A DNA stretch of 64,000 bases from Acidobacteriota bacterium (GCA_040349255.1 JBEQUE010000144.1:15524-79523); one strand, 5' to 3'; counted from the first letter of the stretch, positions 1 to 21,909 are shown. Numbers and translations are program-made. The notes: a model not told the origin generated them from the sequence alone.

Positions 1-1
1 C

Positions 2-193
2 CAGCGCTACGCCGAGCTGGCCGCCATGCTGAGCTCGGAGCTGGAGGACGTGCGCGCGTTCCCCGGCAAGAACCCGCTCCTGCTCACCGAGCTCTGGACG
101 GCCCACAACGACGCCCGGGGATACGCCCTGCTCGGCGATCCGGCGGTGCGCCTGCCCGAAGCTTCCACGACCGGAAAGCCGGAGCGCCCCTAG
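2..193 (+). CDS. 3' end of an upstream gene entering the window (C-terminal 63 aa, ...ELWTAHNDARGYALLGDPAV...). Product unknown. The 'LLGDP' tail is reminiscent of C-termini of caspase-fold (C25/clostripain-like) peptidases.
   Basis: Open frame from the window edge to TAG at 191-193, 3 nt before the ATG of the next gene. Codon usage matches neighbours. Confidence 0.4.
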   Translation, partial: QRYAELAAMLSSELEDVRAFPGKNPLLLTELWTAHNDARGYALLGDPAVRLPEASTTGKPERP

Positions 194-196
194 ACC

Positions 197-2280
<2,084 letters not shown>

Positions 2281-2299
<19 letters not shown>

Positions 2300-4674
2300 G
2301 CGAGCCCTCCAGCCAGTCGTCCGGCGAGCAGTCGGGCGGCAATCCCTACGTCGGCCCGCGCGCCTTCCGGACCGGGGAGCTCCTCTTCGGCCGCGACCGC
2401 GAGGTGCGCGAGCTGCTCTCCATGTTGATCGCCGACCGCATCGTGCTCCTCTACTCCCCCTCGGGAGCGGGGAAGACCTCGCTGATCCAGGCCCGGCTCG
2501 TCAAGGCGCTCGAAGAGGAAGACCTCCGCGTCCTGCCGCTCCTGCGCGTCTCCTCCGCGCCGCGCCCCGAGGACGCGGAGCTTTGCCAGGGAGCCAACCG
2601 CTACCTGCTCGGCACCCTCCTCTCCCTCGATCCCGACCGGCGGATCCCCGTCGCCGAGCTGGTGCGCCTCGGTCTCGACGGCCTTCTCGAGCGGTTCGCC
2701 GAGGAGAGCCAGGACGACCGGCCGCAGGTGCTGGTCTTCGACCAGTTCGAGGAGATCCTGACCCTCGATCCGGCGGACCAGGAGAGCAAGCGGAAGTTCT
2801 TCGAGGAGGCCGGCGCCGCGTTGCGCAACCCGCAGCGCTGGGCGCTGTTCTCCATGCGGGAGGACTACATCGGCGCGCTGGAGCCCTACGTGGGCCACCT
2901 GCCCTCCCGGCTGCGCACCATGTTCCGCCTCGACCTGCTGAGCCCGGCGGCGGCGAGCCTCGCGATCCGCGAGCCGGCCCGCTCCCGAAAGGTGGACTTC
3001 AAGAAAGCCGCGGCCGACCTCCTGATCGACGACCTCCGGACCATGCTGGTCCAGGGACCGGACGGGACGGCCGAAAAGAAGAGCGGTCCCTTCATCGAAC
3101 CGGTCCAGCTCCAGGTGGTGTGCCACCGTCTCTGGAGCCGGCTGCCGGAGGGCGCGACGGCGATCGAGGCCGACCAGATCGATCCCAAGGGCGGCGACGT
3201 GGACGCGGCGCTGGCCGAGTACTACGCGGAGTGGGCCGGGAGGATCGCGCAAGGGGACGAGACCCGGGAGCGGCTCGTCCGGGACTGGTTCGAGAACGCG
3301 CTGATCACGGAGCACGGGACGCGCGGGCAGGTCCTTCTGACCCCCGGAGAAAGCCAGGGCCTGGACAACGAGACCATCCAGTCGCTGGTCAAGGAGGCCC
3401 ATCTGGTGCGGGCCGAGGCGCGGCGGGGCGCCACCTGGTTCGAGCTCGCCCACGACCGCCTGATCGGGCCGGTGAAGGCCGGCAATGCCGAGTGGCGGGA
3501 GACGCACCTCGACGAATTCCAGCGGCGCGCCCTGGCCTGGGGCGAGCGCGGCCTGTATCCCGAGGCGCTCCTGCTGCGCGGCAAGTCCCTGGAGGAGGCG
3601 GAGGCTGGGACCGGAACCCGCACGCTCACGGACCTCGAGAAGGATTTCCTGGAGGCCAGCCGCAAGGCCCGCGAGGAAGCCGAGAAGGAGCAGGAGCTCC
3701 GGCGCGCGGGAGAGGAGCTGGTCTGGCAGCGGCGCCAGGCCCGGCGCCTTGCAGCGTTCATGGTCGTCGCGCTGGCGCTCGCGGCCTTCGCGACCTACAG
3801 CTACATCCAAGCCCGGGCCGAGACGAAGAGAGCGAACCAGGAGACGGAGCGTGCCAACCAGGAAGCGAAGCGGGCGGGCAAGGCCGAACAGCTCGCCCGG
3901 CAGAAGATCGAGCAGCTCCAGGCGACGAACGACAAGCTGACCCTGGCCAGCGCGAAGCTGCTCGAACAGAGCGAGCAGCTCGGCACGAGCGCCCCCGTGG
4001 AGCAGGTCGCCGCGGCGAAGGAGTTGCTCGCGCAGACCGGGGGTGAGGACGTGGGCATACCTGCCTTGTCCACGCCGGTCCGCGTGCAGTTCTTCGCGCG
4101 GAGCTCGGGGAGAAACGACCGCGCCATGGCGGCGCTCCGGAAGCAGGGATTCGAGGTCGAGCCCGAGAAGGGCAGATCGACGGTGGTCAACGCGGTCTGG
4201 TACGGCCCGGGCGTGGAGGCCGAGAGCGTCCAGCAGGTGATCCTGACCCTCATCGGCTCCGGCGTGGAGATCCAGCGGGTCGCGCCCACCAGCAAGCCCG
4301 GCCTGATCCAGGTCGGGACCGACGAGAGGTGGCTCTATCGCGACGCCCTGACGGTAGATCAGGTCGCGGCGCTGCAGCCCTGCTCGTCGGAGGAGGATCT
4401 GGCCTGTTCCGGCGCCCTCTCGGTGCCACCCGGTGGCAATTCCCGTCCCAGGTGCCGGAACATCGTGGCCTACGCGCAGCCGGCGAGCGCGAATCCAGGC
4501 AGGGTCTACTGGCTCCGCATCACCGCCGGCGGCCGGCCCTTCGAATGCAAGGACCTGATGTCCGGGCAGGGCTGCACCTTCTCCTTCCGCGGCAGGAAAT
4601 GGACCGCGACGCTCGGCGCCGTGGACTCCGCCGGCGCCGCGGCGGACGTGCGATTCGCTCCGGTGTGCGAGTAG
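2281..4674 (+). CDS. STAND-type P-loop NTPase (nSTAND-like) with coiled-coil segments, one predicted TM helix and a Cys-containing C-terminal domain
   Basis: ATG at 2281 overlaps the upstream gene by 19 nt. N-terminal GNPYVGPRAF..LLFGRD motif, Walker A SPSGAGKTSL, Walker B QVLVFDQFEE. Hydrophobic helix LAAFMVVALALAAFATYSYI flanked by Lys/Glu/Gln-rich coiled coil. Six Cys in the last ~110 aa. Confidence 0.8.
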
Positions 4675-4691: not shown

Positions 4692-6524
4692 ATGATCAGC
4701 GAGAAGCGTCTCAACGCACTGCGACATCTGCCCGGCTATCTGCACGAGATCGAAGACGGGGATCGACTGCGCGCCCTCCTGAGCTCCTTTTCCTTCCTGG
4801 AAAGGAAGGTCAGAAACCTGAATGCCTCCGAGCTGGTTTCTGACTATGAGTATCTTCCCGAGGACTCCCCACTGCGGCTCGTCCAGGCGGCGGTACGACT
4901 GTCAGCCTATATCTTGGACCGTGATCCTGGCCAGCTTGCAGGCCATCTTCTTGGACGACTCCTAGATCACGACGCGACCGAAATCACGGACCTGTTGGAC
5001 ACAATACGGGAGCAGCACCCCTTAGGATTGTTTCCGACTGTAGCCTCAATGACGCGGCCCGGGGGGGCACTGCTTCAAACCTTTTCGGCACTGCCCTCTA
5101 TTGGCACCATCTACGCCATCGTTCCAACCCTTGATGGGGAGCGTGTCGTGTCCGCATCCTCGGACCGGACGATCCGGATCTGGAGCCTCGCGTCGGGCCA
5201 AGCGCTCCGGATTCTGAGGGGACATGAAAGAGAGGTCACTGCGCTCAAGCTCATATCCGACGGTCGCCTTGCCGTTTCAGGCTCACGAGATCGGACGGTA
5301 CGAATCTGGGACCTGGAAACGGGTATCCAGAAGATAAAAATGCCGACAGCTCGGGGAGTGGAGGCTATAGCAGTGACGCCGAATGGCCAACAGGCCATAG
5401 CCGGCCTGGATGATGGCTCGATCGAGGTTCTGTCCATCTCGACGGAAGATGTACAGCATCTGTTCGGACATGAGAAACAAATCCTTTGCCTTGCGATCAC
5501 GCCGGACGAACAACGCCTGATTTCTGGATCGGAAGACGGAACTCTGCGCGTCTGGAATCTGTCGAGCGGTGCCCTGGAGCGAGTCGAAAGCTTTGGAATG
5601 AAGGTCTGGTCCGTAATCGCAACGCCTGAGAGCAGCAGACTCATCTTCTCTCTCCAGGATGGTACCATCGCCATCCACAACCTGATCGACGGACGCTCGA
5701 TCGACAGATTCAAGGGGCACCGCTTTCCAGCAACTTTCCTGACCCTTGCACGAGACGGCAGGACTCTGATCTCTGCGTCCAGCGGAAAGATCGTGATTTG
5801 CGATCTTGAAAACGTACACACGCAAACGACCATGGCTACGCCAGGTAATCTCTCGGCCATGGCTCTCACCTTGGATGAAAATCGCGCGTTGATCAGTAGC
5901 TATAGCGGTCGGATAACCTTGTGGGATCTCTCTGCGCTTCGACCGACGGAAGAACAGGCCGAGGAGCACAGCATTGGCTCGCTTGCCTTGATTCCAGGCA
6001 GTGCTCTTCTTCTCTCCGCGTCGGGCCGCACAGTCAAGATCTGGGATGCCGAGAAAGGACAAGAGATCCGGACGCTAACCGGGCATACGGATAGAGTCGC
6101 GAGCCTCGCGGTGTTACCAAACGGCGCTTACGCGGTCTCAGGCTCGCTTGACAAGACCATCAAGGTTTGGGATCTGAGAACCGGGGAGAACCTCCGAACG
6201 CTCCAAGGGCATGAAAGCGCGATCATCGCCCTCGCCGTCACAGAGGACGGGAAACGCGTCATCTCCGGCGGCCTTCATGCCGAAGTGAAGGTTTGGTCGC
6301 TGGAGGATGGGCGTGAGCTCTACTCCCGACGCAGACCTCGCGGCTACTTGACGACGCTTGCAGCGACCTCGGACGGGCGCCTCGCCGTTGTCGGCTTGAG
6401 GATGAGGGGAATGCATGGCCGACGATTCTCGACCTTACGACAGGTCGTGTCGTCGGAGAGTTGCGCGGGCATGAGGATCCAGTGGAGACAGCGCTTTTCC
6501 TCCCGGGTGACAACCGCATTCTGA
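4692..6524 (+). CDS. WD40 beta-propeller repeat protein with N-terminal helical arm (sensor module of NACHT-WD40 type); frame is lost near 6395
   Basis: ATG at 4692, 17 nt after the upstream stop. 'FSFLERKV' arm motif followed by ~10 WD repeats (DRTIRIWSL, DRTVRIWDL, DGTLRVWNL, DKTIKVWDL, VKVWSLEDG...). The last ~40 codons of the ORF are out-of-frame garbage. GC is lower than in the two upstream genes. Confidence 0.7.
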   Translation: MISEKRLNALRHLPGYLHEIEDGDRLRALLSSFSFLERKVRNLNASELVSDYEYLPEDSPLRLVQAAVRLSAYILDRDPGQLAGHLLGRLLDHDATEITDLLDTIREQHPLGLFPTVASMTRPGGALLQTFSALPSIGTIYAIVPTLDGERVVSASSDRTIRIWSLASGQALRILRGHEREVTALKLISDGRLAVSGSRDRTVRIWDLETGIQKIKMPTARGVEAIAVTPNGQQAIAGLDDGSIEVLSISTEDVQHLFGHEKQILCLAITPDEQRLISGSEDGTLRVWNLSSGALERVESFGMKVWSVIATPESSRLIFSLQDGTIAIHNLIDGRSIDRFKGHRFPATFLTLARDGRTLISASSGKIVICDLENVHTQTTMATPGNLSAMALTLDENRALISSYSGRITLWDLSALRPTEEQAEEHSIGSLALIPGSALLLSASGRTVKIWDAEKGQEIRTLTGHTDRVASLAVLPNGAYAVSGSLDKTIKVWDLRTGENLRTLQGHESAIIALAVTEDGKRVISGGLHAEVKVWSLEDGRELYSRRRPRGYLTTLAATSDGRLAVVGLRMRGMHGRRFSTLRQVVSSESCAGMRIQWRQRFSSRVTTAF

Positions 6525-6904
6525 CGGGCTCCTTTGATGCCACCATCCGCCTGTGGGATTTTGCGACCCGCCGGGAGTTGCTTCGACTGGAGGGGCACGC
6601 TGACAGAATCCTGAGCCTGGCGGTGACTCCGGACGGTCGCCACATCGCATCGAGCTCGGACGACAATACAGTGCGTGTTTGGCGTCTCGATACAGGGGAG
6701 TGCCTGGCTGTTTTCTTCGCAGAGGGAATAAGCGCTGCTTGCGCCATCTCGTTGGACGCCCAGTGCGTCTATGCTGGCGAACTGTCGGGGAAACTGCACT
6801 TCCTGAAACGGAAACCCTCCGTCATTCCTCTGAAAGCAAGTCCCCCCACAACACATCCGCAACCCGGCGGTTCGCTTCCATCAGATCGACGCCCTTCTCC
6901 TTGA
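6461..6904 (+). CDS. Continuation of the WD40 repeat protein in another frame (2-3 more WD repeats). Together with 4692-6524 it is either a frameshifted pseudogene or a sequencing indel.
   Basis: In this frame the WD pattern continues upstream to ~6392 (LEDEGNAWPTILDLTTGRVVGELRGHEDPV...IRLWDF...VRVWRLDTGE). It overlaps the convergent gene 6822-9968 by ~80 nt. Confidence 0.5.
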   Translation: MRGHEDPVETALFLPGDNRILTGSFDATIRLWDFATRRELLRLEGHADRILSLAVTPDGRHIASSSDDNTVRVWRLDTGECLAVFFAEGISAACAISLDAQCVYAGELSGKLHFLKRKPSVIPLKASPPTTHPQPGGSLPSDRRPSP

Positions 6905-9968: not shown

Positions 9969-10038
9969 TTCTTATCTCTCTCGACAAAAATTGCGCCCGC
10001 AGTCGGGTCTGCGATAACCTGGAACCGCTTCGGCGACG

Positions 10039-11916: not shown

Positions 11917-12287
11917 TCAAGATACGTGAGTTCCGGTCCCGAGCCGTCATGATCGGACGGCAGGCGCTATCCTTCCGCCATGCGCCAGCCCATTCCGACG
12001 CTCTCCCTCCTCGCCCTGCCGCTCCTCGCCGCCTGCGCCACCTCTTCGACACCTCCGGCTCCCTCGACGATCACGGCTCCCGCCGCACAGGCCCGGGCGG
12101 AGTCTCCGGATCGGGAGGAAGACGAGTACTCCCGCTACGAGCTGCTCGAACCCGGGTCGGCGCAGTTCCACATCCTCTTCGAGGTCACCGCGACCGAGCC
12201 CGGCGCGACGGTCTACTTCAACCCGATCCGCAAGGGAAGCGCCGCGAGCGACGAGTCGGTGCGCGACCGGGCGACCGGACAGCCTCT
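11917..12287. repeat. ~372-bp direct repeat copy 2 (intact copy, start of the full-length lipoprotein gene)
   Basis: See 10118-10489. Confidence 0.75.
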
Positions 12288-14287: not shown

Positions 14288-14851
14288 TTAGAGGAAGATC
14301 TCGCCGAGAGGGATCTCCAGGCCGGGCAGGAGCGGGCTGGTCAGAATGTCGCCATCCGCCGCGGTCAGCTCCGCGCCCCCCTGGAGGCATTCCCCCATCC
14401 TGCGGAAGATCCGGGCCGCGTTCCGCGTCGGATCGACCATCCAGTACTCCTGGACGCCCAGGATCTCATAGCGCTCCAATTTGAGACCCTCGTCCCGTTT
14501 CCGAGTCGACGGCGAGAGCACCTCGATGACGAGGTCCGGCGCTCCCTGGACGTTCATCTCGGTAAGAATCCTCGCTCTCGCCTGGGAGACGAACAGGAGA
14601 TCCGGCTGGACGACGTCATGCTTGCCGAGCAGAACGTCGGCGGGAGCCACAAAGAGACGGCCCAGTCGATGACGGCGGACGAACGGCGCGATCCAGGAAG
14701 TCAGCTCGACGACGATGCTCTGATGCCACAGGTTCGGAGCCGCCGTCACGAAGTGCTCCCCGTCGAGGATCTCGTGACGGTACCCATCCTCCGGGAACAG
14801 GAGGTAGTCCTCGTAGGTGAGCTTGCGACGGACTGGATCTCGAAGGGCCAT
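14288..14851 (-). CDS. Uma2-family (DUF820) PD-(D/E)xK endonuclease-like protein
   Basis: MALRDPVRRKLTYEDYLLFPEDGYRHEILDGE...PDLVIEVLSPST.R.DEGLKLERY. The start is taken at an internal ATG; the track ORF extends upstream. Confidence 0.7.
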   Translation of the reverse strand: MALRDPVRRKLTYEDYLLFPEDGYRHEILDGEHFVTAAPNLWHQSIVVELTSWIAPFVRRHRLGRLFVAPADVLLGKHDVVQPDLLFVSQARARILTEMNVQGAPDLVIEVLSPSTRKRDEGLKLERYEILGVQEYWMVDPTRNAARIFRRMGECLQGGAELTAADGDILTSPLLPGLEIPLGEIFL

Positions 14852-15021
14852 GGCGACTCCCGTTTGCAGAGCCAGGAAGAGTTTAGCACGGGACACAATC
14901 CTCGGGTCGGAAGAAGTTCCGCCGGAGGATATCTCAGGACTCGCCGTCGTGGAACTCGCGACGAGGCTCGACTGCAATCGAGTCCGCGCTCCTCGAATCC
15001 TCGGACACCTTCTCCCGGAAT

Positions 15022-17424
15022 TCACGCTTTCCGGCGGCAGATAATCTTGTCTCCACTCGTTCCCACGTGATCAAAATACTTGGTTATGATCTCATGGCAA
15101 TGTCGACAACTGGGCCTTATGTCCTCGTGAAGTTCTAGGATGAGGGTATCCACTCTAGGAAGCCAGGAGGCGGAGGTCTCGAGGACCTCGACCTCAGAGC
15201 CTTCGATGTCGAGCTTCAGTATGTCGATGAAAGAGATGCCATACTCCTCCATAAGCCCATCGACAGTGACGGCTGGAACGGTTTGCATAACACTCCTACC
15301 ATCTAGATCACCTTCTACGGTCTGGAATCCCCATGCTCCACTTCCACCATCGATAACCTGGACGCAGGCTTTCTTGCACCAGAGCGCCCCTCTCACTGGG
15401 AATATATTTGGGAAAGGCATCGAATTTCGAACCAGGAGTTGAAAGTTGTGTTCCTCGGGTTCGATCGCGATGATTCGGGCATCGGGATATCGCAGGGCAA
15501 AGTCAACCGATGAAGCACCTATGTTGGCTCCCCCGTCAACAATCACTTTTGGAGGATGTCCGACCTCAAGGATATGAGGCTTCTCGCGGAAGATCTCGCG
15601 ATACACATCGAGATCCGTGGTCTCTGGTCGTATGTGCAGAATGTGACTACCTTCCAGGGCAACCCTTATTGTTGCCTCGTCGAGTTCGGTCCCATTGACA
15701 CTCTCTCCAGTCTCGCCAAACGAAAAATAAGAAGTAGCGGCCAGCCCAAGAAGGCGCTGCCCGACAGGCAGCAAAGAATGGATGTCTTCCCACTTATTTT
15801 CCCATAACGAACCTTGAAAGCCGAGTTCTTTCCAGAGGCGCTCGGCAAAATTGGGCATTATTGGCGCAGAGAGGATGGCCAAGAGCTTCGCCGCGAGCAG
15901 TTCTAGCGCGACGGCTGTCCGCCGCCTTTCATTTTGCGCGATAACTCGAAGCCAGCTTTCCTCGGATTTCGCGAAGCGCCTCGCATCGCGAACGAGCCAA
16001 CCGAGGACGCTTGCAGCGCACTGAGGCGAGAACGTCCTCGCCTCGTAGGCTTTGCTCGCCTGGGCAGTTAGCATGGTTAGTCGTTCTGCGAATCGCAAGT
16101 GCTCTTCCGCCCAACTACCAGCCCCAGGCACCCGTTCCTCGAACTCTCTAGCAGCCCGAACCGCCAATTCCCTGAGCCAAGCCTGCCATTCACGGATCAG
16201 TTCCCGGTCCACGTCCGCGGCGAGCTCAGCCAAACTGAAGTTGGTCCTCTCCACCTCGGGATATGTTGTCGCCATGTGAAAGCGTAGGGAGTCTGCGGGC
16301 ACCCTGCTCAGCAGATGCTGTCCCCAGATTGCATGCTGCCGGCTGGTTGAGAACTTGGAATGATCAAGAAGACGGAACTCGTTCATGAGCAGCGCCGAAG
16401 GAAGACGGATTTGCGAGTCAAAAGCCATCAGCAACGCGGGCACCAGAACTGCGTAGTAAAAAGCATTGTCGAATCCGAAACATTGAATAGCAAGGGAATC
16501 CCCATTCTTCCAGAATTGCTCCCAGCGGCCATCGAGATGCTGGGCATAGGTGAGATAGCGCGCGGCTTCGTCGCACCACGTATAGACTGTCTGGCCCTCG
16601 AATCCTGGAATTGCAATCGGCACCCCCCAGTTATCGTAATGAGAAACAGCAAAATTCCAGAAACCAACCTGTAGAGCCTGCTCGCAGAAAGATCTCAGAT
16701 TAGAGCTCATCGCCACCTTGCTCCAATATTCCTGCAGCCTGCCGCTATACTGGTCAAGCGGGAAGTAGAGGCGCTTCATAGCCCTGAAGGACGGAGGAGC
16801 GCCGCACTGGGCGCAGACCGGATCCAGAAGATCTACACAGCGGTTGGGCATACCGCAACTCTCACATCCGCTTCCCGTGGTACGGCTTCCACAATAGGGG
16901 CAGTGTCCAGAGATATAGTTCTCATAAAGCTGGCGACGACACGGTTCACAATAGGTAGTCGGGTCCACGCGGGAAATGAGCAATCCACGGGCATACAGGT
17001 TACCTAGAAAATCTTGTACGGTCGGTACGTAGAAGAGCGATGAATTCGGCCGAATAAACTGGTCGACGTCAATCCGCGCCCCCCTGAGCGTACTCGCTAT
17101 ACTTTCCGCCATTTGGTCTGCAACCTGCTGAGGGGAGACGCCAGCCTCCATTGCATGGATCTTGACGTCACTCTGATTGTCATCTGTACCAGTGAAAAAG
17201 TGAACCTCTGCGCCACGAAGCCGGAGGTAGCGCGACTGAATGTCTCCTGCAAGGTAGGGCCCGGAGAGATGGCCCACATGCAGATCGCCATTCGGGGTTG
17301 GGGGCGCTGCCATGACAAGTACGCGAAGAGAAGCATAGCGCAACGTATCCCGGCAGTCGCTCGCCAGGCCCTCGACCGCTCCATAACTAGAAATTATCTG
17401 CTTCTTCTCCCTGGGTTCTTCCAT
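15022..17424 (-). CDS. Methionyl-tRNA-synthetase-like class I aaRS catalytic domain (HIGH/KMSKS-like, Zn knuckles) fused to a C-terminal FkbM-family methyltransferase domain
   Basis: PPTPNGDLHVGHLSGPYLAGDIQSRYLRLRGAEVHFFTGTDDNQ (MetRS-like HIGH region). CEPC...CPYC...CESCG...CAQCG knuckles. LLDHSKFSTSRQ (KMSKS-like). C-terminus VVDGGANIGASSVDFALRYPDARIIAIEPEEHNFQLL (FkbM MT motif). ATG at 17424 with GGAGAG SD. Low-GC gene. Confidence 0.8.
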   Translation of the reverse strand: MEEPREKKQIISSYGAVEGLASDCRDTLRYASLRVLVMAAPPTPNGDLHVGHLSGPYLAGDIQSRYLRLRGAEVHFFTGTDDNQSDVKIHAMEAGVSPQQVADQMAESIASTLRGARIDVDQFIRPNSSLFYVPTVQDFLGNLYARGLLISRVDPTTYCEPCRRQLYENYISGHCPYCGSRTTGSGCESCGMPNRCVDLLDPVCAQCGAPPSFRAMKRLYFPLDQYSGRLQEYWSKVAMSSNLRSFCEQALQVGFWNFAVSHYDNWGVPIAIPGFEGQTVYTWCDEAARYLTYAQHLDGRWEQFWKNGDSLAIQCFGFDNAFYYAVLVPALLMAFDSQIRLPSALLMNEFRLLDHSKFSTSRQHAIWGQHLLSRVPADSLRFHMATTYPEVERTNFSLAELAADVDRELIREWQAWLRELAVRAAREFEERVPGAGSWAEEHLRFAERLTMLTAQASKAYEARTFSPQCAASVLGWLVRDARRFAKSEESWLRVIAQNERRRTAVALELLAAKLLAILSAPIMPNFAERLWKELGFQGSLWENKWEDIHSLLPVGQRLLGLAATSYFSFGETGESVNGTELDEATIRVALEGSHILHIRPETTDLDVYREIFREKPHILEVGHPPKVIVDGGANIGASSVDFALRYPDARIIAIEPEEHNFQLLVRNSMPFPNIFPVRGALWCKKACVQVIDGGSGAWGFQTVEGDLDGRSVMQTVPAVTVDGLMEEYGISFIDILKLDIEGSEVEVLETSASWLPRVDTLILELHEDIRPSCRHCHEIITKYFDHVGTSGDKIICRRKA

Positions 17425-17454: not shown

Positions 17455-20400
17455 ATGCCTGACTATAACATACCGAAGACCTCGCCGAGAAGAGTCCTCG
17501 TTCTGTCGACAAACCCTGAGGATACCGAAAGGCTAGCACTTGAACGGGAAACCCGTCAAATTGAGCGTGCATTAGCGCATCGCGAAGGAAGTTTCACGGT
17601 GCGACACGCTATGGCTGCTCACCTTGAAGATCTCGAGGACAGCCTATTCGATTTTAAGCCGCAGTACGTTCATTTCTGCGGCCATGGCTTAAAAGGAGGC
17701 CGAGGTCTTGCCTTCCAGGATGACTCGGGAAGGACGAGTCCCGTTACCACGCGGCAGCTTAAGGAGTTGTTCTCTATCTTCAAAACGAACATCAGCTGCG
17801 TATTTCTCAATTGCTGCTTTTCGCGCCCCCAGGCAGAAGTGATTTCCGCTCATGTCCCCTACGTGATTGGAACAAGTGAGGCGTTTGACGATGAGTTGGC
17901 CGTTGTCTTCGCTTCAAAGTTCTACAAGGCGATTGGTCGTGGAAAAACGGTCCCATTTGCGTTCAAGTTCGCCCGCGCTGTTACCGCCGACAATTTGGAT
18001 TCCCTGATTCCGGTCCTAGTCCGAGGGCGGCGCAAAAATAAAACAAACCCTGGAGATAGCGTCGGCTCTTCTGGCACCAGCCAGTGGAAGGCAGGAAATT
18101 TAGGGCAACCCAAGGAGTTCCGCTCGTTCGATTTAGAAGCAAAGGAAGAACAGGCTTCGTTACACCTCAATACCTCGCAAAAAGAACAGGATCAGGATGC
18201 TCGGCGCGCTTCCCTGAGCCGCCTCTGGAATCGATTAGAACAAAAGCGCGAAGCCGTCATTTTTCTGGGTTCTGCTGCCTGCGCGGAGGGCTTCAAGGAG
18301 GGCAAGCCCTACCCCAGCTTGGATGCCATCGCCAAGCGAATTCTCGATGATGAAGGTCGAAGCACTGGCAATATGACCGACGTTCGCAAGGAGCTGAGAA
18401 ATACATTGCGGATGTGGACTGAAGGGGAGGGAGATCTTTCCGATTTTCTCCGAAAATATATTTCAGGGCAGCCCGGCGCTGCCCATCACTATCTTGCAGC
18501 CTTGGCTCTAGGCCTTTTCCCGGAGTTCAATCTCCTTCTGTTTGTAACGGCCGGATTCGATGACTTGATGGAGGAAGCATTCGTCAGTCTGCTAAGAGGT
18601 GAAACCCGACCCAAGATAAGGCATTACAGCATTGGGCATCAAGAAGAAACAGTTCCTAGAATTTTCGAGGAAGTCTCCGGTCAAGTGCGCAAGGGAGTGC
18701 CTGTTATACTCAAACTATTTGGCGATCTGGACGCAGAGAGTCCCCTGCTCTACCCAAAGACCAAAATTCGTCAGAAGCTTGGGAGCAGTATTCAAGGCTG
18801 GTTCAGCCGTCCCGTGCTCTTCATCGATTGCGGGCCCGAGGATAAAGCCTTTGAAGATTTGTTCTTTAAGACAGAAAAGCGTGGCCCCTTGTTTGTTATT
18901 GGTAAGAACCTTGCACAATATCGAAACGATCCTACTATTCATCATGTCGCCATATCGCTCATGGAATTCGGCCTAGAGTTCCTCGATATGGTGAGATCTA
19001 AAAATCAGGACCTTCTTAAGCGGGTAGAAGATCTCCTGCATAATGTAGATCCTCTCGCGCTCTATCCTGATTGTGAATCTATCATGGCACGCGCCGCTAT
19101 CGCCTCTCGCGCTTCGTTACTACGGGTGGAAGAGCGACTGCCGCGTAGCCGTTCCAATGAGGAAGGCCACGCCTTTGTGCCCATCGCTCGAATTGACACG
19201 CAACCTGATTTCGCGGCCTTCTTGCGGGACGGTAGGCCTCTCCTTGCATTAATCGGTGATTCCGGTTCCGGTAAGTCTACTCTCTTCTACCAAGTCCACC
19301 AAGCCGCGGGTGCTTTCATTTCGATCTTTTATGACATCCATCAACTTCAGGCCACGCGCACGCTTGCTGGTAGGCTTGCCCACGACTTCCTCTGTGACGA
19401 ACGCAATTTCGTCGACCTTGTTAGAGTACTCGACAAGGCATTGAAATTTGAGCAGCGAAAGCTTGTCATTTTTATTGATGGACTCAACGAAAGCCTTGAT
19501 CTGAAGCCTTCCACCTTGCGCTTTGAAATCGAGGATCTTGGCGCGAAACTGCCAGGAACAATCAAGATTGCCTATTCGTGCCGCAGAGTCTATTGGGACA
19601 ATTTCATCCGCAATACATCGCCGCTTTCCAAAGAACTATACTTTAATTCAAAAGAAATAGTTCTAGAGCACTTTTCTCCAAGAGAGGCGGAAAGCGCCTT
19701 CAAGTCATACCAGGAACTTTACGGATTCCTCGGTAACTATGCTTCATTGAGCTCCGAATTCAAGTTGAGAATTAAGGACCCGCTGATGTTGCGTATGCTC
19801 GCAGAGGGTTACGCGGGGAAGAAGCTTCCTGATTTCGCGCCTGCAGTGCTGATCTTCGATACTTACCATAAACGTTTCCGGCAGCGCTTCAAAGGCACTG
19901 TTGTACCGGCTTTCCTCGATGCGCTAGTGGCCGCGAAGGTAAATGAGACCGAGGCGGAACTCGCCTCCGATCAGTTCATCACTGAAGATGTGCGAACGCA
20001 CCCGAAACTCAGTCTTCTGATTCAACAGCAGATGTTGAATGCGCATCGGGGTGGGGACCCACTCCTGCTCCTCGAAGATGAAGGGATACTGACAGCTATC
20101 GATGACGATAGCACATCCTATCGATTCGCCTACGACCGGTTTTTTGAATATCTACTCGGAAAATCACTTTCAAAACTTCTGACTACCGGTTCTAGAGAGA
20201 GGTTCCGAGAGCGTCTTGAGAAGCAGATACGTAGATTAAGCCCCTTTCATTTTTCCTTCCTGCAAGCGCTGAAGTCGGAGGTCATTCGTCTCAACATTCT
20301 CGAGCCAAGCGGGCCCTGCTCCTTTTACGACCCTGAACTTGTGAGAGGACTTCTTGAGAACGAGGATGCGGGGATCGTTGCGTTCACGAAGGACCTGTTA

Positions 20401-21909
20401 AGAGAGTTGATGTTCGAGGGGGGGCGGGACCTCACGTCAGTGATAGCGCAGGTCTTTCAGGATGAGACGGCTAATCAGCTCTTGATGCTGGACATAGCCC
20501 CTGATTCGCCGCGCACGCTCCCCTTGGTTGTGAGAGGGTTGATGCAGGGTGCGAGAGAGATCGCTCGTCGCTGCTGCCATATCCTTGTCAACTTCTTATC
20601 CGAGCCGGAATCCCGGCGCCTCATCGAGGATGAACTCTTTCTCGAGCTTCGCAGGCCGCTTCAGGTCGCGACAATAGGTGGAATGATTTACTATTCAGCA
20701 GCCTTGGCCGGAGAAGCCGATCGTAGGGGTGCTGACCCTCTACCGATAATCCTAGATTTCTGGCGCCGAGCATGGGGAGTCGCAGAAAGGGACGAAAGGG
20801 ATGTCGAGGCGCTGGTCGGCGGCCTAGTGAGAATAGTACACACTGAGGCTGGCCGATTCTTCGGTGATGACAGCAGGAACGCTATGGACTACATATGGAC
20901 AGGCATGCCTCGTGAGATCAAGGATGTTTCCCTTCAGATGGTTCCATTTATTGTCGATTCTGACCGAAGGCTCCCCCCTGACATTCAGGAGATTCTCCTC
21001 TTCTTCGGATCGACCATACGCGATTGGTCAACTCGTCGCGATCCTGCTGCCTATGTAGAGAAGGACTATAAAATAGAGTTCACGATGGCACAGTGGATCC
21101 TGGTGCAGAGGGCGAGGCACCAATACAGCGACGTGAAGGAGACTCTTGAAAGCTTCGTCGCCACAGGTTATTCACGAAGCATTGAGGTGGCGCTTAGCAA
21201 TATGGAGTCCTGTTGCCTCCATATGCTCCTGAATGACAAAGCGCTTCTTAATGACGCTTATCAGACCATGCTTAAGTGGATGCCGATTTACCAGAGTGAT
21301 GAGCAAGGATTTTACGGGCACTTGGCCAAGGAGGACCCCTTCTCGCGCAACGAGTGCCCGATAGATATGGTTGGTCGAATTTCTCTCCTGGATGAGTTTT
21401 CTCCCAAGGAGGGGCGAATCCCGTTTCTTGAGCCTTGGTTCACTAGCCTGGACAGGAGAGACCGCCTGTACGCCCTAATCTGCGCCAGGAAATTGTGGCG
21501 TCATCAACCCGTAAAGATGCTCCAAACCCTCGAAGTCGTTTGTAGCTCGGATGACGAAACCGTCGCCTCTTGGCTGGACGTCATACTCAAGGAAATCTAC
21601 ATGGTTCTCCCGCGTCTCGTGGAGGAGTTCTTTCGGCGTACCGGCATGGAGCCGGCCCGAGCCCAAAGAATCAAGACTCGGTCGGACGTGGTGGACCCTA
21701 GCGCTGTTGTCCACCCTGGAGAGCCCCTCTACAAAGCGCTCTTCCTCGGCCCCCGAGAGCGCCGCAAGAAATTAGCTGAATGGTACCTTCATCTTCTTCA
21801 GTCCGACAGCTTAGAGGATTACTGCGACGCCCTTGCACGATGGTTCATTTCGAAGATCCACAACATGGATACGGGGAACCATGGGTTGAGCGCCGACCTT
21901 GATCCTTGA
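17455..21909 (+). CDS. Giant CHAT-like caspase domain, SIR2-like domain, NACHT-type STAND NTPase and long helical-repeat C-terminus protein (1484 aa)
   Basis: N-terminus RVLVLSTNPEDTERL...YVHFCGHG...CVFLNCCFS (His/Cys dyad). SIR2_2-like motifs AVIFLGSAACAEG, LLFVTAGFDDLMEEAF, ILKLFGDLD. Walker A LLALIGDSGSGKSTLF, Walker B KLVIFIDGLNESLD. Low-GC gene. Confidence 0.85.
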   Translation: MPDYNIPKTSPRRVLVLSTNPEDTERLALERETRQIERALAHREGSFTVRHAMAAHLEDLEDSLFDFKPQYVHFCGHGLKGGRGLAFQDDSGRTSPVTTRQLKELFSIFKTNISCVFLNCCFSRPQAEVISAHVPYVIGTSEAFDDELAVVFASKFYKAIGRGKTVPFAFKFARAVTADNLDSLIPVLVRGRRKNKTNPGDSVGSSGTSQWKAGNLGQPKEFRSFDLEAKEEQASLHLNTSQKEQDQDARRASLSRLWNRLEQKREAVIFLGSAACAEGFKEGKPYPSLDAIAKRILDDEGRSTGNMTDVRKELRNTLRMWTEGEGDLSDFLRKYISGQPGAAHHYLAALALGLFPEFNLLLFVTAGFDDLMEEAFVSLLRGETRPKIRHYSIGHQEETVPRIFEEVSGQVRKGVPVILKLFGDLDAESPLLYPKTKIRQKLGSSIQGWFSRPVLFIDCGPEDKAFEDLFFKTEKRGPLFVIGKNLAQYRNDPTIHHVAISLMEFGLEFLDMVRSKNQDLLKRVEDLLHNVDPLALYPDCESIMARAAIASRASLLRVEERLPRSRSNEEGHAFVPIARIDTQPDFAAFLRDGRPLLALIGDSGSGKSTLFYQVHQAAGAFISIFYDIHQLQATRTLAGRLAHDFLCDERNFVDLVRVLDKALKFEQRKLVIFIDGLNESLDLKPSTLRFEIEDLGAKLPGTIKIAYSCRRVYWDNFIRNTSPLSKELYFNSKEIVLEHFSPREAESAFKSYQELYGFLGNYASLSSEFKLRIKDPLMLRMLAEGYAGKKLPDFAPAVLIFDTYHKRFRQRFKGTVVPAFLDALVAAKVNETEAELASDQFITEDVRTHPKLSLLIQQQMLNAHRGGDPLLLLEDEGILTAIDDDSTSYRFAYDRFFEYLLGKSLSKLLTTGSRERFRERLEKQIRRLSPFHFSFLQALKSEVIRLNILEPSGPCSFYDPELVRGLLENEDAGIVAFTKDLLRELMFEGGRDLTSVIAQVFQDETANQLLMLDIAPDSPRTLPLVVRGLMQGAREIARRCCHILVNFLSEPESRRLIEDELFLELRRPLQVATIGGMIYYSAALAGEADRRGADPLPIILDFWRRAWGVAERDERDVEALVGGLVRIVHTEAGRFFGDDSRNAMDYIWTGMPREIKDVSLQMVPFIVDSDRRLPPDIQEILLFFGSTIRDWSTRRDPAAYVEKDYKIEFTMAQWILVQRARHQYSDVKETLESFVATGYSRSIEVALSNMESCCLHMLLNDKALLNDAYQTMLKWMPIYQSDEQGFYGHLAKEDPFSRNECPIDMVGRISLLDEFSPKEGRIPFLEPWFTSLDRRDRLYALICARKLWRHQPVKMLQTLEVVCSSDDETVASWLDVILKEIYMVLPRLVEEFFRRTGMEPARAQRIKTRSDVVDPSAVVHPGEPLYKALFLGPRERRKKLAEWYLHLLQSDSLEDYCDALARWFISKIHNMDTGNHGLSADLDP

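What the first reader, a model, noticed from the sequence alone, without database searches (positions are those of the whole stretch)
1..21909. Three different wirings of CHAT + STAND NTPase + effector within 22 kb
The three architectures are: split (CHAT-SIR2 | TM-nSTAND | WD40), fused REase-CHAT-NACHT, and fused CHAT-SIR2-NACHT-repeats. The upstream partial gene may add a further caspase-fold C-terminus. The constant element is the caspase-like CHAT domain. The variable elements are the effector (SIR2 or REase), the NTPase clade (DQFEE, DALDE, DGLNE Walker B variants) and the sensor (WD40 or helical repeats). This points to an evolutionary hotspot where CHAT-containing immune modules are recombined. 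Direct evidence of cassette boundaries is seen at 9131/10039.
Basis: inference. Interest (0 to 1): 0.7.

Follow-up and report, generated by a model that had tools for sequence, protein, structure and literature searches.

The report
Three unrelated CHAT-STAND systems; one invertible
Three caspase-like (CHAT) plus STAND-ATPase immune-type gene sets sit side by side in an Acidobacteriota genome, but they arrived separately instead of being shuffled together; one has just captured a nuclease domain, and another lies in a flippable DNA unit shared with a small-molecule biosynthesis operon.

Summary
The domain observation is largely right: three CHAT + STAND + effector gene sets lie in window 1-25,426. 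The wiring was partly misread, and "recombined here" is not supported.

- **System A (native GC):** C25-like peptidase | CHAT-SIR2 | nSTAND1-TM-C-terminal domain. It belongs to a large family; 73 of 80 fetched loci keep the pair.
- **System B (GC3 about 0.7):** REase-TRADD-N-like-CHAT-NACHT plus a frameshifted helical-WD40 gene. The WD40 gene goes with this system, not with A.
- **System C (GC3 0.57):** CHAT-SIR2-STAND with an all-alpha solenoid.

The three CHAT domains share only 20-29% identity, and each architecture is conserved elsewhere. I read this as three separate arrivals.

The 9131/10039 repeat is a real cassette boundary. An 867-nt low-GC REase cassette sits in frame between two copies of the ancestral ribosome-binding site, TTG start and first codons.

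System C gave an unexpected result. In 7 of 8 loci its gene is convergent with an inositol-phosphate synthase/aminotransferase/radical-SAM operon. Inverted GATAA-N7-TTATC sites bound the unit in all six loci that show both ends. The spacers co-vary. The unit is inverted between related genomes. Four assemblies break exactly at the sites. A XerC/D-like recombinase is often adjacent. This looks like an invertible or mobile module.

The parts
2..193 (+). 3' end of a Peptidase_C25-like (clan CD, caspase-fold) gene; part of system A
   Evidence: 72% identical to the C-terminus of the 516-aa gene directly upstream of the G1 homologue in L004. That gene hits Peptidase_C25 at 39.4 bits against a cut-off of 23. 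A similar peptide occurs in 30 of 80 G1-family loci.
197..2299 (+). G1: CHAT-SIR2 protein (700 aa), system A effector gene, native composition (GC3 0.92)
   Evidence: Pfam CHAT 107 bits and SIR2_2 64 bits. H215/C261 are invariant in the family. At least 1424 homologues have the same about 690-aa architecture, and there are 401 loci in GTDB representatives. Phe replaces the canonical SIR2 His of ThsA.
2281..4674 (+). G2: nSTAND1 NTPase, coiled coil, TM helix (aa 487-511) and a Cys-rich C-terminal domain; its start overlaps the G1 stop
   Evidence: nSTAND1 103.8 bits. The ATG at 2281 overlaps the G1 stop. TM helix and Walker B DQFEE. An nSTAND1 gene is adjacent downstream of the G1 homologue in 73 of 80 loci. 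This type of C-terminal domain is shared only with the acidobacterial loci L004 and L056.
4692..6904 (+). G3: helical (APAF-1-HD2-like) + WD40 gene, frameshifted near 6398-6401; sensor arm of system B
   Evidence: The 731-aa WD40 protein of L003 matches 4707-6401 in frame 3 (57%) and then 6398-6808 in frame 2 (71%). The repaired protein is collinear with aa 759-1469 of a fused CHAT-NB-ARC-WD40 protein. GC3 is 0.66.
6822..9968 (-). G4: Mrr_cat REase, TRADD-N-like domain, CHAT and NACHT-type STAND (1048 aa); system B
   Evidence: Pfam Mrr_cat 41 bits, CHAT 66 bits, AAA_16/NACHT. Homologues P0002-P0007 (47-73% identity) start at G4 aa 275-283 and lack the REase. H506/C552 are invariant. Walker A is GDPGIGKT and Walker B is DALDE.
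9164..10030 (-). Low-GC cassette (867 nt): leader, REase and TRADD-N-like domain, inserted in frame upstream of the ancestral CHAT-NACHT start
   Evidence: GC3 is 0.48 for G4 aa 1-269 against 0.80 for aa 284 to the end. GC is 0.47-0.51 across 9201-10000. The module is found at the N-termini of ECF sigma factors, RR-HKs, nSTAND1 and NACHT proteins. TRADD-like_N is found in 10 of 24 homologues of aa 139-252.
9123..9163 (-). Internal copy of the ancestral initiation region: GGGGAGGAA, 8 nt, TTG (= L275), then PSSSAAP
   Evidence: Sequence. It aligns with the N-termini of the homologues, for example P0004 MPSSNTLPVDL.
10031..10070 (-). Upstream copy of the initiation region: GAGGAGGAG, 7 nt, TTG, then PSSGASP. 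It opens a 29-codon uORF whose TGA (9967-9965) overlaps the REase ATG (9968-9966).
   Evidence: Sequence. Repeat D20. None expected by chance.
14288..15025 (-). Uma2-family endonuclease gene at the left edge of the low-GC island
   Evidence: Pfam Uma2 119 bits. PADLOC candidate PDC-S03. A homologue lies beside the recombinase in L084.
15022..17313 (-). MetRS paralogue fused to an FkbM methyltransferase; flanks the invertible unit on its G5 side
   Evidence: tRNA-synt_1g 267 bits + Methyltransf_21. MetRS scores fall below the equivalog cut-offs. An FkbM homologue flanks the MIPS side in L086.
17383..17407 (+). Left recombination-type site ATAACTAGAAATTATCTGCTTCTTC, 48 nt upstream of G5
   Evidence: It forms a perfect 25-nt inverted repeat with 25402-25426, with 0 expected by chance. 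The same oriented motif occurs in 7 related loci.
17455..21909 (+). G5: CHAT-SIR2-STAND with an ARM/HEAT-like solenoid (1484 aa); system C
   Evidence: Pfam. Full-length homologues at 47-57% identity. CHAT+SIR2 is collinear with the G1 family (hhalign 97%, E 2e-11). Solenoid model. GC3 is 0.57.
21917..22114 (-). Relic of a GT2 glycosyltransferase gene (internal deletion)
   Evidence: Residues 7-21 and 213-265 of the L086 GT2 match here.
22145..25379 (-). Convergent operon: MIPS-like (24222..25379), DegT aminotransferase (22873..24225), radical SAM/SPASM (22145..22966)
   Evidence: Pfam. 61-67% identical to the L086 operon. The same operon is convergent to the G5 homologue in 7 of 8 loci.
25402..25426 (-). 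Right recombination-type site (inverted copy), 23 nt upstream of the MIPS start
25488..25515 (-). Sigma-70-like promoter TTGACT-16-TACAAT outside the right site, facing the MIPS operon
   Evidence: This is a consensus match only. No such match lies between the MetRS-like gene and the left site.

Best explanation
Window 1-25,750 is a compositional mosaic carrying three evolutionarily separate CHAT/STAND conflict systems. They were acquired independently and have not exchanged parts with each other.

**System A (1-4674; resident, GC3 0.92)**
- It comprises a C25-like peptidase, a CHAT-SIR2 protein, and a translationally coupled, membrane-anchored nSTAND1 NTPase.
- The C-terminal sensor of the NTPase lies beyond a TM helix.
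- It belongs to a large, mostly Chloroflexota family in which that sensor is normally WD40.

**System B (4692-10070; GC3 about 0.7)**
- It is a split Apaf-1-like unit: CHAT-NACHT plus a separate helical-WD40 arm, here frameshifted.
- It recently gained an N-terminal Mrr-type REase + TRADD-N-like module.
- An 867-nt low-GC cassette was inserted in frame between two copies of the gene's own ribosome-binding site, TTG start and first seven codons.
- The upstream copy now opens a uORF that ends on the new ATG.

**System C (17383-25426; GC3 0.57)**
- It is a discrete unit bounded by inverted GATAA-N7-TTATC sites.
- It holds two convergent transcription units that lack room for their own promoters.
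- One is a CHAT-SIR2-STAND-solenoid gene. The other is a MIPS/aminotransferase/radical-SAM (+GT/kinase/carbamoyltransferase) operon for an inositol-derived amino-cyclitol-like product.
- A XerC/D-like tyrosine recombinase, adjacent in relatives, inverts or moves the unit.
- Inversion would put either the STAND gene or the operon behind a fixed outside promoter.
- In the window the promoter-like site faces the operon, no recombinase is present, and the GT gene is decayed.

**Shown versus inferred**
- Shown: the architectures, family conservation, composition, the junction anatomy, and inversion between related genomes.
- Inferred: all three STANDs act as NTP-driven switches whose sensor (extracytoplasmic domain, WD40 or solenoid) triggers oligomerisation and activates protease, SIR2-like or nuclease domains.
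- Inferred: the promoter-toggle logic.
For: **Composition**
- GC3 is 0.92 for G1 and G2, 0.66 for G3, 0.71 for G4, and 0.57-0.63 for G5, the operon and the MetRS-FkbM gene.
- The rest of the window is housekeeping DNA at 67-75% GC.

**No exchange between the three systems**
- By BLASTP, CHAT G1-G4 is 27% and G4-G5 is 24%. G1-G5, the two SIR2 domains and all three NTPases are undetectable.
- By hhalign, G1 and G5 share only an ancient collinear CHAT+SIR2 unit at 20% identity.

**System A**
- At least 1424 same-length homologues and 401 loci.
- In 80 fetched loci, nSTAND1 is adjacent in 73, WD40 follows in 57, and the C25-like peptide is present in 30.
- The TM helix is conserved.
- L004 has the same C25 | CHAT-SIR2 | nSTAND1-TM-CTD order without WD40.

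**System B**
- Homologues at 47-73% identity all start at aa 275-283.
- The initiation region is duplicated.
- GC3 jumps from 0.48 to 0.80 within one ORF.
- The G3 homologue lies beside the G4 homologue in L003, and G3 is frameshifted.
- G3 and G4 are collinear with a fused CHAT-NB-ARC-WD40 protein.

**System C**
- The operon is convergent in 7 of 8 loci.
- The site pair is present in all 6 loci that show both ends, and the spacer is identical within each locus but differs between loci.
- Only 3 motif hits occur in 1.39 Mb of control loci.
- Relative to homologous flanks, the unit is inverted between L084 and L087, with breakpoints exactly at the sites. Relative to the FkbM flank, it is also inverted between L086 and the window.
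- Four contigs end exactly at a site: L085 and L089 at both ends, L090 and L091 at one end.
- The recombinase is XerC/D-like with a tyrosine-invertase hit.
- Operon proteins co-diverge with G5.
- Outside promoter-like sites face G5 in L084 and L088, and the operon in the window.
Against: - No function was tested. PADLOC gives only weak, partial hits (Avs1b 26 bits, Avs2 25 bits, SAVED_CHAT 30 bits), so a defence role is by analogy.
- Both SIR2-like domains have Phe where ThsA has its catalytic His. NADase activity is therefore doubtful.
- The TRADD-N assignment is only transitive. There is no direct Pfam hit on G4.
- G3 is linked to G4 in only 2 of 4 loci examined; L001 and L002 lack it.
- The window has no recombinase within 64 kb, and its operon has lost genes. 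The switch may be dead here.
- Promoter matches are consensus hits. None was found in L086 or L087 by the strict scan.
- One family member, L091, lacks the operon within 2 kb.
- Within-population inversion could not be checked without reads.
- The source is a MAG, so the G3 frameshift could be an assembly error.
Confidence: 0.7

Rival explanations
1. The locus is a hotspot where one CHAT module is repeatedly recombined in situ with different effectors, NTPases and sensors, producing the three wirings locally.
For: - Three CHAT-bearing systems lie within 26 kb.
- A true cassette junction exists in G4.
- A second site, with empty and occupied copies in tandem, lies next door.
- The G1 and G5 families share a collinear CHAT+SIR2 unit.
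Against: - CHAT identities are 20-29%, or undetectable.
- Every architecture pre-exists in distant genomes.
- GC3 of 0.92, about 0.7 and 0.57 indicates different donors or ages.
- The only caught exchange brought in a REase, not a CHAT.
Confidence: 0.08
2. The GATAA-N7-TTATC motif is a transcription-factor operator or a 5'-UTR element that co-regulates G5 and the operon. Under this model, the inversions between genomes are rare accidents of homologous recombination between the two copies, and there is no programmed switch.
For: - The motif has the same orientation relative to both genes, and lies 13-140 nt upstream of both starts.
- The window has no recombinase.
- The palindromic arms would suit a dimeric regulator.
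Against: - The asymmetric 7-nt spacer varies between loci but is always identical in both copies of a locus. That is expected for a recombinase overlap region, not for an operator.
- Four independent assemblies break exactly at the outer edge of the motif.
- Two independent orientation differences exist.
- A tyrosine recombinase sits directly beside the motif in three loci.
Confidence: 0.15
3. The site-bounded unit is primarily a mobile module, like the pdif modules of Acinetobacter plasmids. Xer-type recombination moves it between genomic contexts. Orientation differences and contig breaks then reflect different insertions, not phase variation.
For: - The unit occurs as low-GC DNA in a 70% GC acidobacterial genome.
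- Flanks differ between the window, L084, L086 and L088.
- The inverted Xer-like sites and the XerC/D-like enzyme fit this model.
- Contigs consist of exactly the unit.
Against: - L084 and L087 have the same flanks on both sides with the unit flipped. That is inversion in place.
- In the window the low-GC DNA extends beyond both sites (15,000-17,382 and 25,427-25,750), so the transferred piece was larger than the unit.
- This model is not exclusive with inversion.
Confidence: 0.3
4. The REase-CHAT-NACHT fusion is not a real fusion protein. Either the low-GC piece is a MAG assembly chimera, or the CHAT-NACHT protein is still made alone from its internal SD-TTG and the upstream ORF is incidental.
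For: - The internal GGGGAGGAA-N8-TTG is intact.
- NCBI's own annotation starts the gene inside the REase domain (P0001, 928 aa).
- No close relative of the cassette was found in JGI metagenomes.
Against: - The ORF is continuous for 1048 codons with intact domains, including an Mrr_cat match above the cut-off.
- The flanking repeats are imperfect (24 of 27), so they would not cause a de Bruijn mis-join.
- Native-like DNA lies on both sides.
- The uORF stop overlaps the REase ATG (ATGA), a standard coupling arrangement.
- Both the long and the short product may be made.
Confidence: 0.15

Closest known systems
Caspase/CHAT-STAND 'conflict systems' with variable effectors, EADs and TRADD-N adaptors (Kaur, Burroughs, Iyer, Aravind; eLife 2020 PMC7159879; eLife 2021 PMC8195603)
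   Same: - The parts list matches: caspase-superfamily peptidase, nSTAND1 or NACHT NTPase, WD40 or helical-repeat sensors, TM-anchored versions, and REase or SIR2 effectors.
[quoted passage not shown]
- G4's module and its relatives fused to ECF sigma factors fit that description.
   Different: - I found no description there of the CHAT-SIR2 | nSTAND1-TM-WD40 pair, of the junction anatomy of an effector capture, or of any link to an invertible unit or a biosynthetic operon.
- I searched only parts of the texts.
Antiviral STAND NTPases: Avs1-4 (Gao et al. [quoted passage not shown]
   Same: - The tripartite logic is the same: an N-terminal effector (REase, SIR2, protease), a central STAND NTPase, and a C-terminal repeat sensor.
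- G4+G3 resembles the caspase-like Apaf-1 homologues with WD40 sensors.
   Different: - PADLOC Avs models match only weakly, and only over the NTPase.
- G4's sensor is on a separate gene.
- G2's sensor is beyond a TM helix.
- G1 and G5 carry two effector-type domains in tandem, and the SIR2 His is replaced by Phe.
Thoeris ThsA and other defence SIR2 NADases (PDB 6LHX, 8BTO; KomC 8ZSF)
   Same: The SIR2_2-type fold of G1 aligns to the ThsA SIR2 domain (E 5e-10), with the TTN(Y/P)D Asn motif kept.
   Different: - The catalytic His of ThsA (KMHGD) aligns to Phe (LFGRL in G1, KLFGDL in G5).
- There is no SLOG/STALD domain.
- The domain is fused to CHAT.
Invertible segments carrying alternative gene sets behind a fixed promoter: phage Mu G segment/Gin and P1 C segment/Cin (my own knowledge), and the E. 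coli Qin P segment/PinQ (PMC12529663)
   Same: - Two convergent gene sets lie between inverted sites.
- The recombinase gene is adjacent, outside the segment.
- The promoter is outside, so inversion chooses which set is read.
- PinQ shows that such a switch can affect phage infection.
   Different: - Here the enzyme is a tyrosine (XerC/D-like) recombinase, not a serine recombinase.
- The segment is 8-11 kb.
- The alternatives are not two versions of one protein. They are a STAND death/immunity gene and a metabolic operon.
Programmed inversions in defence loci (Type I R-M hsdS invertons PMC7672463; BREX/DISARM gene-altering inversions PMC9881135) and pdif modules flanked by inverted XerC/D sites (my own knowledge)
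   Same: - A tyrosine recombinase and inverted repeats sit next to defence genes.
- The site has two short palindromic arms around a 6-8-nt spacer.
- Modules are bounded by inverted sites and are found in both orientations.
   Different: - Known cases alter specificity subunits or flip promoters.
- None reported in the papers I searched involves a STAND/NLR-type gene or swaps whole transcription units.

Membership tests
CHAT (Pfam PF12770; caspase-like clan CD peptidases) | Profile match above the curated cut-off (24 bits) | tested here: met
   G1 107.2 bits, G4 65.6 bits, G5 26.9 bits.
CHAT (Pfam PF12770; caspase-like clan CD peptidases) | Catalytic His-Cys dyad | tested here: met
   G1 H215 (CHG) and C261 (SC) are invariant in 15 sequences. 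G4 H506 and C552 are invariant in 8. In G5, HF(C/S)GHG and FLNCC are conserved in all six CHAT-bearing members.
SIR2_2 (PF13289) | Profile match above the cut-off (24.5 bits) | tested here: met
   G1 scores 63.7 bits. G5 scores 23.7 bits, just below the cut-off. G5's homologues carry precomputed PF13289, and the region is collinear with the G1 SIR2 domain.
Defence SIR2 NADases (ThsA type) | Catalytic Asn and His (ThsA TTNYD ... KMHGD) | tested here: not met
   Asn is retained (TTNPD). The His position is Phe in the G1 family (YHLFGRL; window YYLFGRL) and in the G5 family (KLFGDL).
nSTAND1 (PF20703) | Profile match above the cut-off (27.1 bits) with Walker A/B | tested here: met
   G2 scores 103.8 bits over aa 16-389 of the real gene. 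Motifs SPSGAGKT and DQFEE.
NACHT (PF05729) / bacterial NACHT proteins | NACHT profile match above the cut-off (26.7 bits) | tested here: inconclusive
   G4 scores 23.1 bits on NACHT and 32.5 bits on AAA_16, both just under their cut-offs. Homologue P0006 carries PF05729. A TANC1-type lid is present.
Avs1-4 (PADLOC models) | Full-length match to an Avs HMM | tested here: not met
   G4 versus Avs1b: 26 bits, aa 682-938 only. G5 versus Avs2: 24.8 bits, aa 595-918 only. G2: no hit.
Mrr-type PD-(D/E)xK restriction endonuclease (PF04471) | Profile match above the cut-off (21 bits) with the D...QxK motif | tested here: met
   G4 aa 13-118 scores 41.4 bits. GPDGGVD ... AAQFKYK is present by inspection.
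TRADD-N (PF20694) | Profile match on the domain between the effector and the downstream module | tested here: inconclusive
   There is no direct hit on G4 aa 130-275. 10 of 24 homologues of that stretch hit TRADD-like_N, best E 9e-6.
Peptidase_C25 (clan CD) for the upstream partial gene | Profile match of the full-length protein | tested here: inconclusive
   Only 63 aa lie in the window and they give no hit on their own. The 72%-identical L004 protein scores 39.4 bits against a cut-off of 23.
Split Apaf-1-like STAND (NOD | HD2-WD40) | The two genes are collinear with a fused CHAT-NOD-WD40 protein and are linked in other genomes | tested here: inconclusive
   G3 aa 11-709 aligns with aa 759-1469 of the fused L003 protein (22% identity, E 2e-24). 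The G4 CHAT aligns with its aa 209-367. The APAF1_C hit is weak, E 0.045. Linkage is seen in the window and L003 but not in L001 or L002.
Programmed invertible segment | Inverted repeat pair bounding the segment | tested here: met
   Window 17383-17407 / 25402-25426, perfect over 25 nt. The pair is present in L084, L085, L086, L087, L088 and L089.
Programmed invertible segment | Site-specific recombinase gene adjacent | tested here: inconclusive
   A XerC/D-like tyrosine recombinase lies directly outside a site in L084, L086 and L087. There is none in the 64-kb window.
Programmed invertible segment | Both orientations observed relative to the same flanks | tested here: met
   L084 versus L087: both flanks are homologous (75-90% aa), the unit is flipped, and the breakpoints lie at the sites. 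The FkbM flank shows the same for L086 versus the window. This holds between genomes only.
Programmed invertible segment | Both orientations within one population (reversibility) | not testable with these tools
   This needs read mapping. The only indirect evidence is that contigs from four assemblies end exactly at the sites.

The most novel reading that the evidence does not exclude
System C is a recombinase-driven toggle. An 8-11-kb unit bounded by inverted GATAA-N7-TTATC sites is flipped by a XerC/D-like tyrosine recombinase. A single outside promoter then reads either a CHAT-SIR2-STAND (NLR-like) death/immunity gene or a convergent operon for an inositol-derived aminocyclitol-type product. 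This would be a population-level, bet-hedging switch between two alternative defence or lifestyle programmes. The unit is conserved and moves horizontally across phyla.
Probability: 0.35. Interest if true: 0.85.

Novelty: new variant of a known kind. Interest (0 to 1): 0.7.

Why it matters
1. **Co-location is not local shuffling.** Three look-alike immune genes sitting together can be mistaken for products of local recombination. Here composition and family comparisons separate 'same parts list' from 'same origin'.
2. **An effector capture caught in the act.** The G4 junction is a rare base-level snapshot of a STAND/NLR-type protein acquiring a new effector domain. A cassette was inserted between duplicated translation-initiation regions, the old start was kept inside the new ORF, and a uORF is coupled to the new start. 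This gives a concrete, testable route for the modular N-terminal variation seen across Avs-, NACHT- and TRADD-N-containing proteins.
3. **A new layer of control, if confirmed.** If the site-bounded unit inverts in living populations, an NLR-like gene would be under phase variation. A death/immunity protein would also be tied to a specific small-molecule pathway. Neither is part of the current picture of bacterial STAND immunity, and both can be tested directly with existing metagenome reads and simple cloning.

Tried and rejected
- **Exact-sequence look-ups of G1:** searches found nothing on record. I therefore could not see the DNA upstream of the window or obtain the record accession.
- **PADLOC on all candidate genes:** only weak, partial hits. 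I did not file any gene under Avs, Thoeris or SAVED-CHAT.
- **Direct Pfam on sub-regions at E<=1:** no TRADD-N hit on G4. Nothing convincing for the G2 C-terminal domain (LytR_C E 0.14) or the G1 linker.
- **JGI metagenome scan for close relatives of the REase cassette:** nothing found, so the donor is unknown.
- **tRNA and Rfam scans:** nothing found. There is no tRNA-type integration site and no known riboswitch at the shared motif.
- **Sites as transposon ends:** I rejected this. No transposase lies inside, the recombinase lies outside, and the window's low-GC DNA extends beyond both sites.
- **WD40 gene as a replacement for the WD40 lost from G2:** I rejected this. Its N-terminal 140 aa match only the L003 family (72%) and none of the 80 G1-family loci. 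It also starts the GC drop 17 nt after the G2 stop.
- **Literature searches:** I found no description of the CHAT-SIR2-STAND/MIPS unit or of an invertible STAND gene. Absence from this library is not proof of novelty.

Full report
**Source and layout**

- The window matches an NCBI 'MAG: Acidobacteriota bacterium' contig of 100,651 bp. P0001, P0055 and P0064 are 100% identical to window genes.
- Most of the window is 67-75% GC and encodes housekeeping functions to the right of about 25.75 kb: citrate synthase, aconitase, iron transport.
- The left 25.7 kb is a mosaic. GC3 is:
  - 0.92 for G1 and G2 (1-4674);
  - 0.66 for G3 and 0.71 for G4;
  - about 0.48 for the first 269 codons of G4;
  - native-like for 10.0-14.2 kb;
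  - 0.57-0.63 for 15.0-25.75 kb.
- No tRNA gene or Rfam family lies in the region.

**Checking the observation**

- G1 (197..2299) is CHAT + SIR2_2.
- G2 is nSTAND1. The real start is the ATG at 2281, which overlaps the G1 stop.
- G4 (6822..9968, minus strand) is Mrr_cat + CHAT + NACHT/AAA_16.
- G5 (17455..21909) is CHAT + SIR2_2 + P-loop.

Other points also hold:
- The Walker B variants DQFEE, DALDE and DGLNE are present.
- The catalytic His-Cys dyads of all three CHAT domains are conserved in their families.
- G5's last 605 residues fold as an all-alpha solenoid (pLDDT 79.6, pTM 0.75). It shows only generic ARM/HEAT similarity to karyopherins.
- The upstream partial ORF (2..193) is 72% identical to the C-terminus of a 516-aa Peptidase_C25-family protein that precedes the G1 homologue in L004.

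**System A**

- G1 belongs to a large and very uniform family. At least 1424 proteins of about 690 aa share 47-71% identity. There are 401 loci among GTDB species representatives, mostly Chloroflexota and often several per genome.
- I fetched 80 loci:
  - an nSTAND1 gene follows on the same strand in 73;
  - WD40 repeats follow the NTPase in 57;
  - a C25-like C-terminal peptide is present in 30.
- In Oscillochloris (L035) the partner is one 1180-aa nSTAND1-WD40 protein.
- A strong TM helix separates the NTPase from the C-terminal domain in the window, L004, L035 and L011. The sensor of this family is therefore predicted to lie outside the cytoplasm.
- The acidobacterial versions (window, L004, L056) carry a different, Cys-rich C-terminal domain in place of WD40. 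L004 has no WD40 gene afterwards; a GGDEF-EAL gene follows instead.
- System A in the window is therefore complete without G3.
- One caveat concerns the SIR2 domain. The family aligns to the ThsA SIR2 domain (E 5e-10) and keeps the Asn motif, but has Phe at the catalytic His position. G5 has the same substitution.

**System B and the WD40 gene**

- G3 starts 17 nt after the G2 stop, exactly where GC falls.
- Its N-terminal 140 residues match none of the 80 system-A loci. They are 72% identical to a 731-aa helical-WD40 protein in L003, 2.5 kb from P0004, which is a 71%-identical homologue of G4's CHAT-NACHT body.
- That L003 protein matches the window in frame 3 up to 6401 and then in frame 2 from 6398 to 6808. 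G3 is therefore frameshifted, either truly or through a MAG error. An intact G3 would run to about 6904 and overlap G4's 3' end.
- The repaired G3 is collinear with the part of a fused CHAT-NB-ARC-WD40 protein that follows its NOD. The G4 CHAT matches that protein's N-terminal part.
- G4 itself ends after the lid and winged-helix region and has no repeats.
- I read G4+G3 as a split Apaf-1-like unit. The linkage is seen in only two of four loci.

**The cassette boundary at 9131/10039**

- The six closest homologues of G4 (47-73% identity) are 764-786 aa long. All begin at G4 residues 275-283.
- At that point the minus strand reads GGGGAGGAA-N8-TTG-CCA-AGC-TCC-AGC-GCA-GCG-CCG. This is a ribosome-binding site, a TTG start (L275) and PSSSAAP, matching P0004's MPSSNTLP.
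- A second copy, GAGGAGGAG-N7-TTG-PSSGASP, lies at 10070-10031. The 27-nt core matches at 24 of 27 positions, with none expected by chance.
- Between the copies lie 867 nt of 47-51% GC DNA. They encode a leader and 269 residues: an Mrr-type REase and a second domain.
- The upstream copy opens a 29-codon uORF. Its TGA overlaps the REase ATG as ATGA.
- A HMMER search of 1.84 billion representative proteins placed the module at the N-termini of very different proteins: ECF sigma factors (49-55% identity), response-regulator kinases, nSTAND1 and NACHT-TPR.
- The second domain gives no direct Pfam hit. However, 10 of 24 of its homologues hit TRADD-like_N.
- This fits the published description of TRADD-N proteins with highly variable N-terminal effectors, including REase and ECF-like HTH (PMC8195603).
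- NCBI's annotation starts this gene at V121, inside the REase domain.

**Are the three systems recombinants of each other?**

The evidence says no.
- By BLASTP, CHAT identity is 27% for G1-G4 and 24% for G4-G5, and undetectable for G1-G5. The two SIR2 domains and the three NTPases do not find each other.
- Profile comparison shows the G1 family and the N-terminal 470 residues of the G5 family to be homologous as a collinear CHAT+SIR2 unit (probability 97%, E 2e-11), but at 20% identity. G4 shares only the CHAT fold with either.
- Each architecture is already conserved in distant genomes, and the three differ sharply in composition.
- The region is a place where such systems accumulate. It is not a place where one CHAT is rewired.

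**System C**

- The G5 family is tiny. There are eight homologues in 5.8 billion proteins. Five are full length at 47-57% identity, and two lack CHAT.
- In 7 of 8 loci the gene is convergent with the same operon: MIPS-like, DegT aminotransferase, radical SAM/SPASM, then usually GT2 or an acetyltransferase, and an APH-like kinase or a NodU-like carbamoyltransferase. L091 is the exception.
- The window's operon proteins are 61-67% identical to those of L086 and 50-56% to those of L088, tracking G5's own divergence. A GT2 relic survives at 21917-22114.
- A perfect 25-nt inverted repeat brackets the window's unit, at 17383-17407 and 25402-25426. The same oriented motif, (C)GATAA-N7-TTATC, brackets the unit in L084, L085, L086, L087, L088 and L089. 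It begins the contigs L090 and L091.
- The motif has only 3 hits, allowing up to 3 mismatches, in 1.39 Mb of control loci.
- The asymmetric spacer differs between loci: CTAGAAA, CTAGTAA, CTTGAAA, CTAGCAA, CTAAAGA. It is always identical in the two copies of a locus. This is the behaviour of a tyrosine-recombinase overlap region.
- A XerC/D-like recombinase, which also hits tyrosine-type invertase models, lies directly outside a site in L084, L086 and L087.
- L084 and L087 share both flanks (75-90% amino-acid identity), but the unit is flipped between them. Homology stops exactly at the sites. Relative to an FkbM methyltransferase flank, the window is flipped compared with L086.
- Contigs from four independent assemblies end exactly at the outer edge of a site, two of them at both ends. 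This is the expected signature when the two flanks are joined to either end in the sampled population.
- The sites lie 13-47 nt from the MIPS start and 48-140 nt from the G5 start, which leaves little room for internal promoters.
- Sigma-70-like matches lie just outside one site. They face G5 in L084 and L088 and face the operon in the window. None was found by the strict scan in L086 or L087.
- The arrangement parallels the Mu G segment and the PinQ P segment: convergent alternatives, an outside promoter and an adjacent recombinase.
- In the window no recombinase homologue is present and the operon is eroded. This copy may be frozen with the operon facing the promoter-like site.

**Mechanism, with shown and inferred steps marked**

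*Shown:*
- the architectures and conserved catalytic dyads;
- the TM topology signal;
- the gene linkages;
- the cassette junction;
- inversion between genomes at defined sites.

*Inferred from established work on Avs, bacterial NACHT and Apaf-1-type STANDs:*
- ligand binding by the sensor drives NTP-dependent oligomerisation;
- oligomerisation activates the attached or co-encoded effectors.

*Inferred, with my probability:*
- the inversion is reversible and programmed, about 0.55;
- it toggles expression between the STAND gene and the operon, about 0.35-0.4.

The SIR2-like domains may bind rather than hydrolyse NAD-related ligands, given the missing His.

**Comparison with the literature and novelty**

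- The parts and the general logic are those of the caspase/STAND conflict systems catalogued by Kaur et al. (PMC7159879, PMC8195603), and of antiviral STANDs (bioRxiv 10.1101/2022.07.19.500537; PMC12803255).
- None of the three genes is a member of a named PADLOC system.
- Programmed inversions are known in R-M, BREX and DISARM loci (PMC7672463, PMC9881135). In the papers I could search, none involves STAND genes or swaps whole transcription units.
- Overall these are new variants of known kinds. Two items are of real interest: the base-level effector capture in G4, and the site-bounded STAND-plus-operon unit.

Noticed in passing
window 10073-12288: An 'empty' and an 'occupied' insertion site lie in tandem. 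X1 (10073-10121) abuts Y1 (10117-10489). X2 (10505-10554, 83% identical to X1, including the stop codon) is separated from Y2 (11915-12288, 94% identical to Y1) by a DUF4157/eCIS_core gene (10552..11907, minus strand). Y is the 5' part of a lipoprotein gene. It is truncated at 10181..10588 and complete at 11980..13251. This looks like a single-crossover integration of an allele that carried the toxin-type gene.
   Followed up: partly
window 10792-11283: The DUF4157/eCIS_core protein contains four diverged internal repeats of about 32 aa (NPRAAAL...GTITxxE). They show up as 82-150-nt direct repeats with 96/150-nt spacing.
   Followed up: no
window 15022-17313 (-): A methionyl-tRNA-synthetase paralogue is fused to an FkbM methyltransferase. 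Its scores fall below the MetRS equivalog cut-offs. It sits in the low-GC island beside the inositol-type operon. By analogy with MshC, it may ligate an amino acid to the pathway intermediate.
   Followed up: partly
window 21917-22114 (-): This is an internally deleted relic of the GT2 glycosyltransferase that belongs to the operon in other loci. The kinase or carbamoyltransferase gene is absent as well, so the window's operon is eroded.
   Followed up: yes
window 6822-9968 (-) / P0001: The public NCBI annotation of this gene (928 aa) starts at V121, inside the Mrr_cat domain. The REase fusion is therefore invisible in the deposited protein.
   Followed up: yes
window 14288-15025 (-); L084 5911-6459: A Uma2-family endonuclease (PADLOC candidate PDC-S03, 113 bits) sits at the edge of the low-GC island. 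A homologue lies beside the recombinase in L084.
   Followed up: partly
L035 12004-15546; L011 11971-16341: In the canonical Chloroflexota partners of CHAT-SIR2, a strong TM helix lies between the nSTAND1 NTPase and the WD40 propeller. This predicts an extracytoplasmic WD40 sensor on a STAND protein. L011 also has an AAA ATPase and a C25-like gene downstream.
   Followed up: partly
L001, L002, L003 (loci of G4 homologues): The CHAT-NACHT homologues lie in neighbourhoods dense in other CHAT genes: TPR-CHAT, CHAT-FGE-sulfatase, OmpA-like, C25-like, KAP NTPase and CHAT-NB-ARC-WD40. L003 has three paralogous helical-WD40 genes.
   Followed up: partly
L088 21360-21693: Next to the CHAT-less G5 homologue P0061, just outside the unit, lies a separate gene annotated SIR2_2 + CHAT. 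Its N-terminus resembles that of P0062. This is a possible in-trans supply of the missing CHAT.
   Followed up: no
window 44431-46032 (-) and 49094-53122 (-): There is a second eCIS_core (DUF4157) protein, with an anthrax-lethal-factor-like C-terminal hit. There is also a 1342-aa SbcC/Rad50-like ATPase with co-directional neighbours at 53115..57259. This could be an SMC-type system, but I did not examine it.
   Followed up: no
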